Source: Promethearchaeota archaeon (GTDB lineage: Archaea; Asgardarchaeota; Lokiarchaeia; Sigyniarchaeales; SOKP01). From it: a stretch of DNA of 64,000 nt. The notes under the pieces were generated by a model, which worked only from the letters and a program-made list of their open reading frames with translations, did no database searches and was not told the DNA's origin. The stretch spans positions 1 through 64,000 of the forward strand of contig RDOA01000015.1 of NCBI GenBank assembly GCA_011364925.1, given 5' to 3'. Shown piece after piece: positions 51,060 to 60,646 of this stretch; within the stretch, counting starts at the first letter, position 1, and the number at the start of each line of letters is the position of its first letter. Both the position numbers and the translations under genes were made by a program.

Positions 51060-51917
51060 TCATAGATTCATTTGGTTTTTATACGCATAGAAAGTGTTTT
51101 GTAGTAAGAAGCTAACAGTCATAGGACCCACGCCCCCGGGATTAGGTGTAATCCATGAGCACTTATCGAACACACCTTCATAGTCAACATCACCGCATGT
51201 TTTTCCGTTAACTCTATTCGTTCCTACATCTAGAATAACAACGCCTTCTTTTATTTTCTCTTTAGTTATGAAATTGGGTTGACCTACTGCGACTATTAAA
51301 AGATCTGCTTTCTTAATAAACTCATTTATATTCACTGTTGATGTATGGCAGATCGAAACAGTAGCATTTCTTTTTAAAAGCATAAATACTAATGGTTTAC
51401 CTACTAAATTAGACCGATTAATAATGACAGCGTATTTTCCTTTGATTTCTACATTATAGTGTTCTAAAAGAGAGATTATCCCTTTTGGAGTACATGGTAC
51501 GAGATCTTCCTTGTAGTCAAATAATTTCCCCCGATTGAACGGATGAAGTCCATCTACATCTTTTTGAGGACTTATTTTCTCAATAAATTCATTAGTAGAA
51601 TCTTTTAGTTCCTTTGGAAGAGGAAGTTGTAAAATTATACCATGAACAGAATTATCTTCATTGAACCGTTTTATTTCATTTAGTAAGGTTTCTTTTGAAG
51701 TCTCTTTCTCAAGATTTACAAGTAATGAATCTATTCCAACTTCAGAACAAGTTCTTCTCTTGATATTTAAATACAATTCTGAAGCAGGATTATTACCAAC
51801 AAGAATGCCCGCTAATTTTGGTTTCACACCAGTTTTTTTGGAAATCAATAGTACTTTCTCTTTTAATTCCAAGTTTAATTTTTGCGACAAGAGCTTTCCG
51901 TCTAATACTTTTCCCAT
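51060..51917 (-). CDS. folD: Methylenetetrahydrofolate dehydrogenase/cyclohydrolase
   Basis: KDVDG, PCTP, NRSNLVGKP and PGGVGPMT. Confidence 0.96.
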   Translation of the reverse strand: MGKVLDGKLLSQKLNLELKEKVLLISKKTGVKPKLAGILVGNNPASELYLNIKRRTCSEVGIDSLLVNLEKETSKETLLNEIKRFNEDNSVHGIILQLPLPKELKDSTNEFIEKISPQKDVDGLHPFNRGKLFDYKEDLVPCTPKGIISLLEHYNVEIKGKYAVIINRSNLVGKPLVFMLLKRNATVSICHTSTVNINEFIKKADLLIVAVGQPNFITKEKIKEGVVILDVGTNRVNGKTCGDVDYEGVFDKCSWITPNPGGVGPMTVSFLLQNTFYAYKNQMNL

Positions 51918-52020: not shown

Positions 52021-53130
52021 TTAAATTCTTCGACGACGCTGAATTATGTAAGCAATCAAAACAATTGCTCCAATAACTGTTAATAATATAATTAAAATTA
52101 TATAATTAAACTCGACCATGAATATATCTTCGTTCAATAAATCTAATAAACCTAGTGATTGTAAAATCTTGAATGCAGAATAAGTTGTACCAATAGAAGA
52201 AAATTTTTGATCAGTCCCTTCAATCGAATCGCCAAAACCACCATCAAGAAAATTTTGATGTTTTAAGACCCAATTTGAGGTTGCGTCTTTATTTAATTCA
52301 TTTATATCTATAATTTTAATTCCTTCAACGCAGAGAAGGGTACTTCCTAATAATGTAACTTCAGAAAATAGATCTGGTAAATATCCACCATAGTTATCAA
52401 GATTATTAGAATCTCCGATATAAAGCGACTTAAAGTAATCGAGTGTCGCAGTTGTGTTTACTAAATTACTAATTGTACCTAATTCGGTTGTTAAATAAAC
52501 CGCAAAATTGGTTGTTGTTAAAGTAGATGGTAGAGTTTGGTTTCCTCCATAGCCACCATCAGAATTATAGCATGATGAGATCCAATTTAAATGTGTTGTC
52601 TTATTTTTGACTGGTTCATTAAGCAAAGAATATATATTATAAATGTAGTATGTTGAAACCATGTTAGCATGCCCAGATTCGTTTGTGGGACTAAATCCTC
52701 CACCAATTTGGTAAGTTTCATTTATATATCTATAAATTTTATTATGAAGAGATGTATTTAATGCTGTACTTAATGGTTCCAATACATTTAAAGCTTCTAA
52801 GTTATATTTTATAGTGTATATATCGATTGTTTCAGAAGAAAACATTTGATTAATTTCATTTTTAAGGTAATTTTTCAATTTGAGGATGTCAACGCTTTTG
52901 GTCCCGCTAAATGCGTTATAATAGGCTATAATTTCTATTGCATTAGCAGTTTCTTGGGAATTAACGCCAAAACTTTGATCTTTATGTTGATATTTGTAAA
53001 TAAAATCAACTAGATAACTCTCACGGGTTTTCGCGAGCACGATAGGAGTGATACTTAACATTACTATAATAACTAAAAACACAAATGATAAATTTCGAAC
53101 TCTCTTATTCAAATCGAAGTGAAACCCCAA
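52021..53130 (-). CDS. Membrane-anchored, probably extracellular prenyltransferase/squalene-cyclase-repeat protein
   Basis: N-terminal signal; repeats GGFS, CYNSDGGYG, GGY and QNFLDGGFG; C-terminal TM plus RRRRI. Confidence 0.78.
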   Translation of the reverse strand: MGFHFDLNKRVRNLSFVFLVIIVMLSITPIVLAKTRESYLVDFIYKYQHKDQSFGVNSQETANAIEIIAYYNAFSGTKSVDILKLKNYLKNEINQMFSSETIDIYTIKYNLEALNVLEPLSTALNTSLHNKIYRYINETYQIGGGFSPTNESGHANMVSTYYIYNIYSLLNEPVKNKTTHLNWISSCYNSDGGYGGNQTLPSTLTTTNFAVYLTTELGTISNLVNTTATLDYFKSLYIGDSNNLDNYGGYLPDLFSEVTLLGSTLLCVEGIKIIDINELNKDATSNWVLKHQNFLDGGFGDSIEGTDQKFSSIGTTYSAFKILQSLGLLDLLNEDIFMVEFNYIILIILLTVIGAIVLIAYIIQRRRRI

Positions 53131-53259
53131 TCTGGTTTTAACTAAAATTTTAATTTTTTAAATTTAACGTATAATTAAAAATTAACGATCTTTTGTGTTT
53201 TCAGTCAGATTATCTAAGAAATTATATTAGAATAAGATGTAATTTGATAGAAGGTTAAA

Positions 53260-54786
53260 CTAAAAAATTTCACTTATGCTCTTGTATAGAGTAGCACTAT
53301 TGGACTGAAATTGTTCGTGGGTTACAAATAAACTTTGAAAGCTTGGAAGACTCCCAAGTATGCTCGCACCATTAAATATAGCAAACTGTAAGTTTTCTGG
53401 GACAAAAAATCTTAAAACTTCTTCTGATGATTCGTAGAAACCTGAAAATTCTTTTGCAGGTGTAGTATTCTTAATAATCTCGGGAGGAATCTCTGGAATT
53501 CTTGTTGTTTGAATACTTGCTCCACAATACGGACAAAAAAATGACTTAACGTCTTCAATTTCTTTATTACAATTAGAACATAAAATTTTGCCACCTTCAA
53601 GCTTGGAATTTTTAGCCATTTTTACACCTCCAATTGTAAGTTCTGGTAATGCGATTCGACCGTTACAAGATGGACAAAATTCTTTACCATCTGTAAGATC
53701 TACAAGCGTACCACAATGTGGGCATGTATCTTCCTTCTTTTGCGATTTTTCCTTTGGTTTTAACTTTTGCCTTCCTTCCCGCGAAGGTTGAGTAATTTTA
53801 GGTTTAGGGATCTTTCCTAATTGAGGGAGTAATTGGTTTAATTCTAATCTCAGTCTCTCTTCAAATCCAGAATATGAGAGATTTCCACCCGAAATCATAA
53901 TATGAGAAAGAAGATCACTCCAGAAGTATTTATCGATTCCTTGTAAACTATTTATCATTGCCTCTGGTATATTCATAATATTATATCCCAATAAATTAGG
54001 CTTAAACATTACCTCTGGAGCTTCATGGAAAATATAATTTGGAATATTAATGTTTGAACCATCTGGCATCGCAAAACTATAACTTTCATCTACTTTTGGA
54101 GGGTTCTCGGGATCTAAAGCAAAAAAACAATTCTTTTCTTTGATATCTTTAACTATTTCATCTACAGCGCTTGATTCTATATTGATCCCTTCTCTCATAA
54201 GCAAATTTTTTAAATGCTGATTTACATCTATACCAGCTAAAGTTAATTTTTGGACTGATTGCTCAACCATTTCTCCATTTAGAATCGGGCATACCCAAGT
54301 TATCCCATCACCACTTTCTACAACAATTCCAGTCGTAAGACCTACACTGAATAGTGAAAGTATTGGTGTTGGGATCATTATTAAACTTTTTACTCTATGC
54401 GTTTCAAACAAAACTCGGGCAATGTATTCCTTAGTCTCTCGTTGAACAAATGGAGATTCAGTATATAACACGGGATAATTAGCCATGTTTTCGATTCTAA
54501 GTAACGAATAAAAGATGTAATTTAATATTTCATAGTAGTCGTTCCAATCCGTTATCGCACCTCGTTCGATTGGGTGCTTTATTTTTAGAACACCTCTCAT
54601 TTTTGAAGCGTCTGATCCAATATATATATTTCGAGCTCCCACATCAACCATCACAGCTTTATATTTTTCTGTACCTGTGATTGTGGGGAACACAAATCTA
54701 GGACTGGGCTCTCCTGCGAATCCTATTTTAGTGTAGGCTGATCCAATGTCAACAATAATCGGAGTTCCGGGTAATGGGATTGCCAT
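53260..54786 (-). CDS. Actin-related protein with a double zinc-ribbon insertion
   Basis: DIGSAYTKIGFAGE..PRFVFP, PIERG, ESGDG, IKEK, PDG, PE..F.P, SGG and GASILGSL; four CxxC in the insert. Confidence 0.92.
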   Translation of the reverse strand: MAIPLPGTPIIVDIGSAYTKIGFAGEPSPRFVFPTITGTEKYKAVMVDVGARNIYIGSDASKMRGVLKIKHPIERGAITDWNDYYEILNYIFYSLLRIENMANYPVLYTESPFVQRETKEYIARVLFETHRVKSLIMIPTPILSLFSVGLTTGIVVESGDGITWVCPILNGEMVEQSVQKLTLAGIDVNQHLKNLLMREGINIESSAVDEIVKDIKEKNCFFALDPENPPKVDESYSFAMPDGSNINIPNYIFHEAPEVMFKPNLLGYNIMNIPEAMINSLQGIDKYFWSDLLSHIMISGGNLSYSGFEERLRLELNQLLPQLGKIPKPKITQPSREGRQKLKPKEKSQKKEDTCPHCGTLVDLTDGKEFCPSCNGRIALPELTIGGVKMAKNSKLEGGKILCSNCNKEIEDVKSFFCPYCGASIQTTRIPEIPPEIIKNTTPAKEFSGFYESSEEVLRFFVPENLQFAIFNGASILGSLPSFQSLFVTHEQFQSNSATLYKSISEIF

Positions 54787-54989: not shown

Positions 54990-55412
54990 TTACTCGATTT
55001 TTAAAGATTTTTCTAACTTCTTTTCTATATCTTCTAGCTCCACGAAAAGAGTTTTATAAGTTTTAAGTAAATAGTGACCCCAATCGTTTAATTTAACCCA
55101 TCCTCCTCCACCAAGACCCCCTTTTTTGGTTTCTACGGGTGATCTTCCTGATCGCTCTTTAATTTTTTTTAAGATATTCCACGCATATTTATAAGAGTAT
55201 CCACATTCCATTGCCGCTTTGGTTAATGATTTGGGCTCACCCATATCAGCATCATTAATAGAATCAAGTAATTTAGCCCAGCCTGATCCTAATATGTTTT
55301 TGCGATCCTCATCTTGAAATTCTAACCAAAATTTAATACCAAAACCAATTTTACTTTTTAATTTTTCAAAGTTCGAGTTTTTACTCAATTTTTCACTAGA
55401 TGGATCTTCCAT
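54990..55412 (-). CDS. ModE-family winged-helix regulator
   Basis: ILGSG..LL..I, SLTKAA..GYSYKYAW and GG.GGGG..L..G. Confidence 0.88.
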   Translation of the reverse strand: MEDPSSEKLSKNSNFEKLKSKIGFGIKFWLEFQDEDRKNILGSGWAKLLDSINDADMGEPKSLTKAAMECGYSYKYAWNILKKIKERSGRSPVETKKGGLGGGGWVKLNDWGHYLLKTYKTLFVELEDIEKKLEKSLKIE

Positions 55413-57910: not shown

Positions 57911-60646
57911 ATGTTTAATCTGGAAGAGTTTGAACAAGATCAAGTAGTATATCCTCTCGTTGAAAAACTTAGTAAGTTACTTGAAAAGAATAAGATTGAT
58001 AAGATTGAAAAAGTGATTAAACAGTTAGAAGAACTTTTAAGAGAGGAAGAGCATGCCACAACTGTTTCCTATATTCTTAGTATCATAGCAGAAATCAATC
58101 CTAACTTAATTAGTGAGAGTATACTTACTGAACTAGAAAGCTATATTACCACGGGCAATCCAAAATTAAAAATTAATACATTCATTATAATTGGATTTGC
58201 AATGCTTTCAGATCAGAAATATCTTGATAGGTATTTACCAGAATTTATTCTCCATCTAAAAGATTTAAACAAAGATGTGCGAGGTAATATCTATTACTTT
58301 TTACAGGAGGTTGGAAATTCTAAGCCTGAAAGGTTATGCGCTTATAAAATTGATATTATAAATGCGTTAAAAACCGAAAATGTTGAAGAGAATCTAATTT
58401 CGCTAATGAGTTTTCTTGAAAAATGTACGCAATTTGACTTTGAAAACTTATACAATGTTAGAGAAGTTTTAAAAACACTCGTTAAACGGTATTATTCCAC
58501 TGACTCTTCTGCAATTTATAATAAAATATTAAATCTAGTGAAAAAGTTATTTCCATCCATTAATGATTTAAACGTTGAGGATTATGGATTAGATCAGATT
58601 TTAGACGCTGTTCAGAATTGCTTTTTAATGAAGAAACACAATTTTACTGAGATATCTGAGTCACTAAATGTTGATTTAAAAGATTACATTAAAAATTTGA
58701 GTGAGAAAGACCATAACGACCGAAAGATATCTTTTTACATAAACCAAAAGGAACAAAAAGAAACATATATCTATGAACTTGAGAAGGAAAAACTATTAGA
58801 TTTATTCGGAAAGGAAGAAAAATTACAAAAAAAGAATATTCTTCGGGTTTTTTCTCCGATTATTCATACAGAGCCCGAATTAAGACAATTTATAAATATG
58901 TTAATTAAACTAGGGCATATAAAAGGATTTTATTCAAAATTGGGTTTCTTTTACTCGTATAATTATTTAAAATCAGAAATATTAAATGATTTTTATAATC
59001 ATGGAACAATTGATCTTACGAAATTTGACTATTTCCCCCCTGAATTCGTTAATAATATTATAAGAGATATATCAGATCTAACTAAACAAGTATTTCTGAT
59101 GGGGAAAAATAACACTACTTACTATTCTTTAAAAAAAATTCAACAAGAAATTAACACTGAAGCAGCGAAGAATACTATTATTGATTTAAAAGAATACCGT
59201 GAACATCTATTAGAAAAGGATTTTATTCGACTGATCAAAAATCTCCCAAAGGGTTATTTAACTTTCTTTAGATCAGGGACTCAATGGTTAACAAATGTTG
59301 GATTATTGAAGGTTAAAAAAGAGATTGAAAATTCTAAACTTATTGGATATTATTCAATTCCAATGCTCTCAGAAAAATTACATGTTAAAAGAGAGTTGTT
59401 AGTTCAAGTTCTTGAGACCTTCATTGATATTAGAAGTGGAATATTCGATAAAAACAAGGAAATTTTCTATTATACTAAGTTTCTAAATCAGGAGATCGAG
59501 AAAATTAACACGATAATAGATCAAAACGAGAGAGAGAAACAAATAAACTTAATGGCAAAAAATTTAAACATCGATAGGAGTCATATCATTACAAAATTGG
59601 ACGAGAATTTAAAATCAATAGGGGAAGAAATTAAGGAGATGGACACGATCAAAATTAACGATTATATTGAAAAAACAGGCATGTCCTATAACCTGTTTAT
59701 CGAATTTATCAATGATCTCGGTTTAAATTATTTCAAGAAAGGAGGCGAACTCATTTTTAAGGAGAGTAAAATCGAAGAATCTAAGCACAATATTAAACTA
59801 ATGCTGATTAATAAATCTAAATCTGAGGACATCATACATTTGGGAGATCTCGATGTTACTTCTAGTATCGTTGAGGAATTACTTAAGGAGCTCCAAAACG
59901 ATGAAAAAGTTAATGGAGTTTTTCATTTTCACGACGGGGAGCTAATTTTTTACACTGAAAAAGGAATTGAAAATTTAATGTTGGAAAATAGTTTCATGTT
60001 TTCATTTAATGATTTTTTTTACGATAAAATCTTGGATGATAAAGAAATAGAAACTTTATTATCTATTTTTAATAAGTTGGTTAGTAAGAAGCTTTTGAAA
60101 GGCACTTTTGATAATGATTCGTTAACATTTGCCAGTTCTGATGTAATCTTCGCACAAGATTATAATAAAATTTTATCTCAATTCGAAAAAATAGTAACAG
60201 AATATACGACGATTTTTAAAACTGAATTTGAAAAGATTAAGAAGATTTTGACTAAATCTAAAGAAACGATATTTCCTCAAGAAATTAAATTTATCCAAGA
60301 AAGAATTGATTTGATCAACGAAAAGTATATACATTGGAGAAACGGAATAGAATCGTTTGTAAGAAAAGCTAATGCTTCACTCCTAAAGAAGCAAGGGTTT
60401 ACCATCAAAAAATACAAAACTATGACGATTTCAGCAGAAAAAAAAGATGAAATTAAGTATTTTGAAGAAGATCCATATATTCTTGATTTAATTTCTGAGT
60501 TTAATAAATGGGTAAAAGCATTCAATGAGTTAGAATTAAAATATGGGAATGTAATATTTTATCAAAAAAGATTAATAAATGATGCAGATAATAAGGACAG
60601 TAGGAAAGTATTAGATGATTTATTGAAGAAATTAAACTTAATCTAA
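57911..60646 (+). CDS. HEAT-repeat protein with tandem winged-helix (UFL1/PCI-like) repeats
   Basis: N-terminal HEAT-like helices (DLNKDVRGN); repeated units ending IKGFY, RSGIF, VNGVF and LKGTF. Confidence 0.7.
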   Translation: MFNLEEFEQDQVVYPLVEKLSKLLEKNKIDKIEKVIKQLEELLREEEHATTVSYILSIIAEINPNLISESILTELESYITTGNPKLKINTFIIIGFAMLSDQKYLDRYLPEFILHLKDLNKDVRGNIYYFLQEVGNSKPERLCAYKIDIINALKTENVEENLISLMSFLEKCTQFDFENLYNVREVLKTLVKRYYSTDSSAIYNKILNLVKKLFPSINDLNVEDYGLDQILDAVQNCFLMKKHNFTEISESLNVDLKDYIKNLSEKDHNDRKISFYINQKEQKETYIYELEKEKLLDLFGKEEKLQKKNILRVFSPIIHTEPELRQFINMLIKLGHIKGFYSKLGFFYSYNYLKSEILNDFYNHGTIDLTKFDYFPPEFVNNIIRDISDLTKQVFLMGKNNTTYYSLKKIQQEINTEAAKNTIIDLKEYREHLLEKDFIRLIKNLPKGYLTFFRSGTQWLTNVGLLKVKKEIENSKLIGYYSIPMLSEKLHVKRELLVQVLETFIDIRSGIFDKNKEIFYYTKFLNQEIEKINTIIDQNEREKQINLMAKNLNIDRSHIITKLDENLKSIGEEIKEMDTIKINDYIEKTGMSYNLFIEFINDLGLNYFKKGGELIFKESKIEESKHNIKLMLINKSKSEDIIHLGDLDVTSSIVEELLKELQNDEKVNGVFHFHDGELIFYTEKGIENLMLENSFMFSFNDFFYDKILDDKEIETLLSIFNKLVSKKLLKGTFDNDSLTFASSDVIFAQDYNKILSQFEKIVTEYTTIFKTEFEKIKKILTKSKETIFPQEIKFIQERIDLINEKYIHWRNGIESFVRKANASLLKKQGFTIKKYKTMTISAEKKDEIKYFEEDPYILDLISEFNKWVKAFNELELKYGNVIFYQKRLINDADNKDSRKVLDDLLKKLNLI

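What the first reader, a model, noticed from the sequence alone, without database searches (positions are those of the whole stretch)
53260..54786. Actin-related protein with a double zinc-ribbon insert and substituted hydrolysis residues
Seen: an actin-like sequence with the D-loop region retained (KAVMVDVG). About 130 aa (approx. 53420-53815) containing a basic Pro-rich linker and CPHC, CPSC, CSNC and CPYC are inserted just before the final subdomain-3 strand. By-eye alignment puts T at actin Q137 (IPTPILSLF versus AIQAVLSLY) and W at H161 (ESGDGITW versus DSGDGVTH). Established: Q137 and H161 drive ATP hydrolysis, and eukaryotic ARPs specialise through such inserts. Inference: a non-filament, ARP-like nucleator, cap or adaptor linking the cytoskeleton to a Zn-ribbon partner such as nucleic acid, Ubl or membrane protein.
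Basis: partly seen in the sequence, partly recalled or inferred. Interest (0 to 1): 0.75.

Follow-up and report, generated by a model that had tools for sequence, protein, structure and literature searches.

The report
Asgard actin relative with zinc ribbons
This is a real, conserved actin-like gene of Loki-type Asgard archaea that has lost actin's main ATP-splitting residue, carries one or two zinc ribbons in a surface loop and keeps only one of actin's two stacking faces under strong selection, which suggests (untested) that it plugs the growing end of an actin filament.

Summary
Observation confirmed. Window 53260-54786 (minus strand) encodes a 508-aa actin-fold protein with a ~131-aa insert at actin position 324/325, four CxxC motifs, T at Q137 and W at H161. 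Orthologues occur in 142 of 153 other genomes of the order, including L. ossiferum (UYP44711.1, already listed as an ARP; one ribbon) and P. syntrophicum (QEE17409.1). None was found elsewhere in the phylum. Q137 is lost in all orthologues; the H161W change is lineage-specific. My main addition: filament-contact residues of the pointed-end face evolve slowly and those of the barbed-end face fast (0.48 vs 1.24, p about 0.005, tested after I had seen the pattern). Lokiactin shows no such asymmetry. This argues against an Arp2/3-like template and fits a barbed-end cap or one-sided adaptor. Published L. ossiferum data put it about 5.6 log2 units below Lokiactin, but it was not enriched in the Lokiactin co-IP, which weakens the cap model. 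No complex could be modelled and the ribbons' partner is unknown. I found no paper describing the insert. This scan noted the family before on other DNA (57 windows, 41 genomes). New variant of a known kind.

The parts
53260..54786 (-). Gene for the 508-aa zinc-ribbon actin-related protein (ZnR-ARP)
   Evidence: AF2 model pLDDT 81.7, core mostly above 90; VIA Z=45 to actin over 346 residues, rmsd 2.0
53422..53814 (-). ~131-aa insert (aa 325-455) at actin 324/325 in subdomain 3: linker, ribbon 1, linker, ribbon 2, linker with a conserved E-F/Y motif
   Evidence: linkers pLDDT below 50, ribbons about 70
53665..53724 (-). Zinc ribbon 1 (CxxC-x12-CxxC, aa 355-374); present in every full-length orthologue examined
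   Evidence: zinc binding inferred from the motif
53524..53580 (-). Zinc ribbon 2 (CxxC-x11-CxxC, aa 403-421); absent in family f4 and in the L. ossiferum lineage
54367..54369 (-). T140 at the position of catalytic actin Q137
   Evidence: S/T/A in 36 of 36 diverse orthologues
54295..54297 (-). W164 at the position of actin H161
   Evidence: invariant in the 117 close homologues, variable across the order
54595..54672 (-). Pointed-end face, subdomain 2: D-loop to the R62 equivalent (K39, Y40, M44, M61, R62 in actin numbering nearly invariant)
   Evidence: site rates 0.12-0.17
54262..54285 (-). Barbed-end face: degenerate W-loop (Y169 replaced by E/Q/K; Y166 and E167 replaced)
53920..53934 (-). 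Barbed-end face: 286-290 segment with D288 and R290 salt-bridge partners lost (D288 variable, R290 mostly W)
52021..53130 (-). Conserved downstream neighbour: single-copy alpha/alpha-toroid (PF00432) protein with signal-peptide-like N-terminus and C-terminal membrane helix; functional link not shown
   Evidence: adjacent in 31 of 35 orthologous loci
54990..55412 (-). Conserved upstream neighbour: ModE-like winged-helix protein (context only)
51060..51917 (-). FolD, conserved fourth gene of the block (context only)

Best explanation
A low-copy, nucleotide-bound but poorly or non-hydrolysing actin paralogue that acts as a one-sided subunit. It docks with its conserved pointed-end face (D-loop M44, K39/Y40, R62, the 243-245 turn) on the barbed end of a Lokiactin filament or oligomer, as an incoming monomer would. 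It cannot accept the next subunit because its own barbed face has lost Y169, D288 and R290 and carries a flexible 131-aa insert. It would thus end or stabilise the barbed end, and the tethered zinc ribbons would link that end to a partner, most plausibly at the membrane. Shown: architecture, conservation, residue changes, rate asymmetry between the faces. Taken from published data via an inferred identifier match: low abundance. Inferred: nucleotide and zinc binding, weak ATPase, docking on Lokiactin, capping, membrane partner.
For: Site rates in 36 orthologues, using contacts named in bioRxiv 10.1101/309534: pointed face 0.48, barbed face 1.24, permutation p=0.005; five key contact pairs 0.13 vs 1.56, p=0.004. 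Controls show no such asymmetry: Lokiactin 0.68/0.51, a second Loki ARP clade 0.92/0.77. The contrast with Lokiactin has p=0.001, holds for three residue lists, and holds without family f1 (p=0.001). R62-D288 and D244-R290 pairs are mostly broken within the family, against self-polymerisation. Nucleotide-pocket residues D11, G13, K18, G156, G182, K213, E214, G301, G302 are kept (72-80% identical to Lokiactin against 33-41% overall), while Q137 is lost. The L. ossiferum orthologue is expressed in all 16 proteome columns at mean 16.1 against 21.7 for Lokiactin. Look-alike ribbons in this genome sit mostly on membrane proteins: 22 of 33 against 748 of 3483, odds ratio 7.3.
Against: In the published Lokiactin co-IP the orthologue has no row in the stored table, which runs from the top down to a ratio of about -1 (file cut), although the less abundant FolD was detected. 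My first test, identity of the two faces to Lokiactin, was not significant (p=0.23 identity, 0.09 BLOSUM); the rate test was run after I had seen the pattern; within family f1 alone p=0.07. K39, Y40 and D244 are nearly invariant in all three clades and may be structural. The M44 pocket (F143, T148, I165) and W290 stay fairly conserved, so the barbed face is not free of constraint. Lateral contacts are poorly kept (about 14-30% identical to Lokiactin). The D-loop tip is shorter in the cultured lineage. Q137A actin still polymerises and releases phosphate only 4-fold slower, so 'no ATPase' is not established.
Confidence: 0.4

Rival explanations
1. Monomeric adaptor or sequestering factor outside filaments: the conserved pointed face binds a non-actin partner (or one Lokiactin monomer) and the ribbons bind a second partner, as nuclear ARPs act as scaffolds.
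For: Not enriched in the Lokiactin co-IP; lateral filament contacts poorly kept; remodelled phosphate site (H73R in 36 of 36, S14E/Q in 20 of 36); fixed neighbourhood with a membrane toroid protein, a ModE-like regulator and FolD.
Against: The most constrained surface residues (M44, M61, R62, K39, Y40) are those that actin uses for the long-pitch contact; no alternative partner was identified.
Confidence: 0.3
2. It forms its own filament or short oligomer with remodelled contacts, with the ribbons projecting outward as a decorated coat.
For: D-loop M44 and its pocket (F143, T148, I165) are both fairly conserved; W290 is conserved in 25 of 36; a flexible insert at 324 could loop out.
Against: Y169, E167 and D288 vary freely; two salt-bridge pairs are broken without compensation; abundance is far below Lokiactin; the filaments seen in L. 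ossiferum were assigned to Lokiactin (PMC9834061).
Confidence: 0.12
3. It pairs with the other Loki ARP (C91-type, L. ossiferum UYP44126.1), which shows the mirror pattern, either as a direct heterodimer or as the two ends of a short dynactin-like Lokiactin filament.
For: The C91-type keeps Y143, Y166, Y169, D286, D288, R290 but has lost M44 and R62; difference between the two clades p=0.01; both occur in most genomes of families f1 and f3.
Against: C91-type was not found in family f4 (0 of 4; genomes 63-88% complete), where ZnR-ARP is 4 of 4; it has no row in the stored top part of the L. ossiferum proteome (below about 14.4), so it is not stoichiometric; its own asymmetry is not significant on the paper-derived list.
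Confidence: 0.12
4. Arp2/3-like nucleator that templates barbed-end growth of Lokiactin (one of the first reader's options).
For: Low abundance and ARP status.
Against: Templating needs an intact barbed face; here that face is the fast-evolving one and bears the insert.
Confidence: 0.05

Closest known systems
Ca. Lokiarchaeum ossiferum UYP44711.1 (NEF87_000996), one of the three non-Lokiactin actin homologues in PMC9834061; P. syntrophicum QEE17409.1; Ca. Harpocratesius repetitus MCF2140085.1
   Same: Orthologues: one clade with UFBoot 100, same gene neighbourhood, same insert site; identity confirmed by the paper's primers and exact look-up.
   Different: UYP44711.1 has one ribbon, an acidic linker and keeps H161. 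The paper only places it among ARPs and reports that Lokiactin is expressed severalfold higher; the word 'zinc' does not occur in its main text.
Lokiactin (this genome's C16 copy; solved relative HC1 actin, PDB 9wc4) and eukaryotic actin
   Same: Same fold (VIA Z=45), about 37% identity, nucleotide pocket and pointed-end contacts kept.
   Different: Q137, H73 and H161 (invariant in 27 Lokiactins) replaced; barbed face degenerate; 131-aa insert; no C-terminal RCF; confined to one order.
Eukaryotic Arp2, Arp3 and dynactin Arp11
   Same: Low-copy ARPs that act at filament ends (own knowledge); same fold.
   Different: They keep a usable barbed face and sit at pointed ends (own knowledge); here the polarity of constraint is reversed. 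I know of no zinc-ribbon insert in them. Orthology was not testable with the sequences in hand.
Nuclear ARPs (Arp4, Arp7/9, Arp8)
   Same: Non-polymerising ARPs with large inserts and altered catalytic residues (own knowledge); same fold, Z 33-39.
   Different: They have a remodelled D-loop and work in chromatin remodellers (own knowledge); here the D-loop is the conserved part and no remodeller link was seen.
DZR / zinc_ribbon modules (PF12773, PF13240, PF13248)
   Same: CxxC-x11/12-CxxC ribbons; DZR score above the Pfam cut-off; many look-alikes in this genome.
   Different: Here they are inserted inside a soluble actin fold, whereas the look-alikes are mostly on membrane proteins; ligand unknown.

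Membership tests
Actin family (PF00022) | Profile score above the curated cut-off | tested here: met
   241 bits against cut-off 27
Actin family (PF00022) | Complete four-subdomain actin fold with nucleotide-pocket residues | tested here: met
   AF2 core mostly pLDDT above 90; VIA Z=45, 346 residues, rmsd 2.0; D11, G13, K18, G156, K213, E214, G301, G302 kept
Lokiactin / conventional actin | Catalytic Q137 and H161 | tested here: not met
   T and W here; 0 of 36 orthologues have Q; 27 of 27 Lokiactins have Q and H
Lokiactin / conventional actin | Falls in the Lokiactin plus eukaryotic actin clade | tested here: not met
   Separate clade with UFBoot 100, outside the Lokiactin/actin clade (96)
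Lokiactin / conventional actin | Both long-pitch faces conserved | tested here: not met
   Barbed-face rate 1.24 against pointed 0.48; Y169, D288, R290 replaced
Lokiactin / conventional actin | Polymerises into F-actin-like filaments and hydrolyses ATP | not testable with these tools
   needs purified protein
Asgard actin-related proteins (non-Lokiactin paralogues) | Orthology to a protein classed as Asgard ARP | tested here: met
   Orthologue L037 is UYP44711.1
Arp2/3-type nucleator | Intact barbed face to template a filament | tested here: not met
Arp2/3-type nucleator | Orthology to Arp2 or Arp3; ARPC subunits present | not tested
   no verified Arp2/Arp3 sequences in the tree; ARPC subunits not searched
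Barbed-end capper (functional class) | Binds barbed ends and blocks elongation | not testable with these tools
   needs a biochemical assay; only indirect conservation evidence
Double zinc ribbon (PF12773) | Two pairs of CxxC with score above cut-off | tested here: met
   28.5 bits against 27.3; 8 Cys invariant in 117 homologues
Double zinc ribbon (PF12773) | Zinc is actually bound | not testable with these tools
   inferred from the motif
NZF / RanBP2-type zinc finger | W-x-C-x2-C-x3-N-x6-C-x2-C, with TF after the second Cys for ubiquitin binding (motif from memory) | tested here: not met
   Spacers are 12 and 11, not 10; no W, N or TF at those positions in the family profile
WH2 / thymosin actin-binding motif | Profile match of the LKKT-like segment in the inserts of the cultured lineage | tested here: inconclusive
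   No WH2 or thymosin family among the best 25 Pfam rows for six inserts; lists were cut at 25

The most novel reading that the evidence does not exclude
Lokiarchaeales have an actin-fold barbed-end cap that tethers filament ends through zinc ribbons, possibly with a second ARP of mirror-image conservation at the pointed end. That would be dedicated filament-end machinery built from actin paralogues in archaea, with a polarity I do not know from eukaryotic ARPs.
Probability: 0.3. Interest if true: 0.85.

Novelty: new variant of a known kind. Interest (0 to 1): 0.62.

Why it matters
What the non-Lokiactin actin paralogues of Asgard archaea do is an open question: published work on regulation covers profilins and gelsolins (PMC13716822) and lists the ARPs only by phylogeny and transcript level (PMC9834061). 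This family is kept in nearly every genome of a whole order, is present in both cultured species, and now has a directional, testable prediction (binds through its pointed face, blocks at its barbed face) with named residues to mutate. If true, archaea evolved filament-end control from actin duplicates independently of Arp2/3 and CapZ.

Tried and rejected
Identity of the two faces to Lokiactin: not significant. Atlas feature search with the insert alone gave no usable hit. The first AF2 run (shallow alignment) had inconsistent models, pLDDT 51-74; the second gave no confident docking of the conserved E-F/Y motif (pLDDT about 52). A WH2-like reading of the LKKT segment in the cultured lineage found no profile support. 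No RNA holder was listed. Promoter/terminator scan was at chance level. Apparent joint loss of the ARP and toroid genes in G147 and G233: the ModE-like neighbour is missing too, so probably an assembly gap. An obligate link to the toroid gene is rejected: it was not found with this query in G274, G276, G278, which have the ARP, and weaker homologues occur outside the order. Sister group of the clade is unstable: an insert-less ARP from family f25 is sister in IQ-TREE but not in FastTree. Paper searches for the insert or the accessions found only PMC9834061; most subscription journals are not covered. The Arp4 structure paper was not held, so statements on eukaryotic ARPs are from memory.

Full report
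1. The observation. The window holds an uninterrupted ORF at 53260-54786 on the minus strand, 508 aa. Pfam finds Actin (E=1.8e-71, two stretches) and DZR over aa 355-422. HMMER alignments to solved actins cover aa 6-326 and resume at aa 458 with actin residue 327, so about 131 residues (nt 53422-53814) sit in the 324/325 loop before the last subdomain-3 strand. The four CxxC motifs are at aa 355, 371, 403 and 418. T140 aligns with Q137 and W164 with H161. Contigs from independent studies cross both insert junctions. An AlphaFold2 model from a diverse alignment (mean pLDDT 81.7, five consistent models) closes the actin fold around the insert, with ribbons near 70 and linkers below 50; the best solved match is actin, Z=45 over 346 residues.

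2. The family. A protein search gave 315 hits; in 117 full-length ones (61-98% identity) all eight Cys are invariant. In 400 genomes of the phylum, matches at E below 1e-100 occur in 127 of 134, 1 of 1, 10 of 14 and 4 of 4 genomes of the four families of the order, and in none of 246 genomes outside it, where the best hits are at Lokiactin level (only three candidates were scored per genome, so a very divergent copy could be missed). The orthologue in the 6,035,313-base genome matches the RT-qPCR primers for UYP44711.1 in PMC9834061 and is that record by exact look-up; P. syntrophicum QEE17409.1 and Ca. H. repetitus MCF2140085.1 are also members. The host is therefore a Lokiarchaeales (Promethearchaeia) genome. 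On the core without the insert the family is one clade (UFBoot 100) outside Lokiactin plus eukaryotic actin. Family f4, with one ribbon, branches first; L. ossiferum lost ribbon 2 secondarily; one genome has an extra insert-less copy nested in family f1. This genome also has two Lokiactin-like genes and two other ARPs.

3. Active site. Residues that hold the nucleotide are kept (72-80% identical to Lokiactin against 33-41% overall). The hydrolysis side is remodelled: Q137 is S, T or A in all 36 diverse orthologues, H73 is always R, D154 mostly E, S14 is E or Q in 20 of 36, and H161 varies (W16, T6, F4, H kept in L. ossiferum); all 27 Lokiactins keep Q137, H161 and H73. The roles of Q137 and H161 are described in bioRxiv 10.1101/309534, which also notes that Q137A actin polymerises and is only 4-fold slower in phosphate release. 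Weak or absent ATPase is therefore likely but inferred.

4. The two stacking faces. I took the long-pitch contacts named in that paper. Identity to Lokiactin differs between the faces only as a trend (p=0.23 and 0.09). Site-specific rates within the family are clearly asymmetric: pointed face 0.48, barbed face 1.24 (p=0.005); for K39, K61, R62, D244, M44 against D286, E167, D288, R290, Y169, 0.13 against 1.56 (p=0.004). Lokiactin (0.68/0.51) and the second ARP clade (0.92/0.77) do not show this. The contrast with Lokiactin is p=0.001, survives two other residue lists, and holds without family f1 (p=0.001) but only as a trend within it (p=0.07). This test was chosen after I saw the pattern, the lists are short, and some of the invariant residues may be structural. 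The insert lies on the relaxed face (that the 322-325 loop meets subdomain 4 of the next subunit is from my own knowledge). The other ARP clade (L. ossiferum UYP44126.1) is a mirror image at the key residues: Y143, Y166, Y169, D286, D288 and R290 kept, M44 and R62 lost.

5. Published proteomics. In the supplement of bioRxiv 10.1101/2025.11.30.690169, identifiers 01003 and 01004 have the masses of the two downstream neighbours (31.93 and 41.88 kDa against 31.95 and 41.9 computed), so 01005 is inferred to be the ARP. It is present in all 16 columns at mean 16.1 against 21.7 for Lokiactin, about 50-fold lower if the values are log2 and proportional to amount. That is too little for the main filament and enough for one copy per roughly 50 subunits. 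It has no row in the stored part of the Lokiactin co-IP, which is sorted by enrichment and reaches a ratio of about -1, and the paper names no ARP among enriched proteins. This counts against a stable, abundant association. The mirror-image ARP (inferred 00418) has no row in either stored sheet.

6. The ribbons and the neighbourhood. The ribbons are of the generic DZR type; the NZF/RanBP2 motif is not met and their net charge is -2.6 and +0.7, which does not favour nucleic acid. Of 33 look-alike ribbons in this genome 22 are on proteins with predicted membrane helices, against 21% in the background (p=4e-8); this is a class association and names no partner. The gene sits in a conserved block: ModE-like regulator, ARP, membrane-anchored alpha/alpha-toroid protein, FolD. 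The toroid gene follows directly in 31 of 35 loci across all four families and is about as abundant as Lokiactin in L. ossiferum but not enriched in the co-IP. Its cytosolic tail is only a few residues, some genomes have the ARP without a detected toroid, and FolD shows that unrelated genes also stay in the block, so a functional link is unproven.

7. Mechanism. Best reading (0.40): a one-sided actin subunit that docks on a Lokiactin barbed end through its conserved pointed face, cannot be extended, and holds out zinc ribbons to a partner. Rivals: a monomeric adaptor outside filaments (0.30), its own polymer (0.12), a pair with the mirror-image ARP (0.12), an Arp2/3-like template (0.05). A complex model could not be run.

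8. Novelty. The gene is on record: as an ARP in PMC9834061, as 'zinc ribbon domain-containing protein' in automatic annotation and as a 79-member archaeal cluster in the ESM Atlas. I found no paper that describes the insert, the residue changes or a function, within a library that lacks most subscription journals. Earlier agents of this scan reported the same family on other genomes; that is not independent support. It is an Asgard ARP and an actin-family member, not a Lokiactin and not an Arp2/3-type nucleator by the tests run. Verdict: new variant of a known kind, interest 0.62.

Noticed in passing
window 52021-53130 (minus): Single-copy membrane-anchored alpha/alpha-toroid (PF00432) protein; its L. 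ossiferum orthologue is among the roughly 75 most abundant proteins (mean 21.5), so it is a candidate major cell-surface component.
   Followed up: partly
L073:1228-2340 (G000 C91); L120: Second ARP clade (UYP44126.1 type) with barbed face kept and D-loop M44/R62 lost; Q137 to D/G/E, H161 to R; in 116 of 134 f1 and 13 of 14 f3 genomes, not found in f4.
   Followed up: partly
L155:11726-12295 (minus): A Ras-family small GTPase gene lies directly upstream of that ARP in L. ossiferum.
   Followed up: no
L072:1187-2332 (G000 C32): Second Lokiactin-like gene in this genome with Q137/H161 intact but an altered D-loop and a longer branch.
   Followed up: no
L074:1273-2472 (G000 C90): Third, very divergent ARP clade (P-loop K18 to R, no D-loop motif), conserved in families f1 and f2.
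   Followed up: no
L046:5873-7030 (minus; G196): Insert-less duplicate of the ZnR-ARP with a decayed D-loop (M44 lost), in a genome that also has the full copy.
   Followed up: partly
L135:1492-2958 and L136:730-2181: ARPs of family f13 with an N-terminal Cys/His motif; an independent metal-module fusion, not related to this clade in the tree.
   Followed up: partly
L137, L138, L139, L140: ARPs of the sister order with long C-terminal extensions (483-853 aa), some with repeated F-x-K-I-D motifs.
   Followed up: no
L057-L070, between the ModE-like gene and the ARP: A CBS-pair gene (about 143 aa) is inserted directly upstream of the ARP in many f1 genomes but not in this window.
   Followed up: partly
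L037-L045, after the ribbons: The cultured lineage has a conserved basic segment ending in LKKT-like residues inside the insert; thymosin/WH2-like by eye, no profile support.
   Followed up: partly
window 57911-60646 (plus): 911-aa protein with only a weak HEAT-like hit (Cnd1, E=5e-4), conserved near this block in family f1.
   Followed up: no
window 53145-53189: Short AT-rich stretch at which unrelated contigs from several runs align partly (loose ends); possibly a dispersed element or chance.
   Followed up: no
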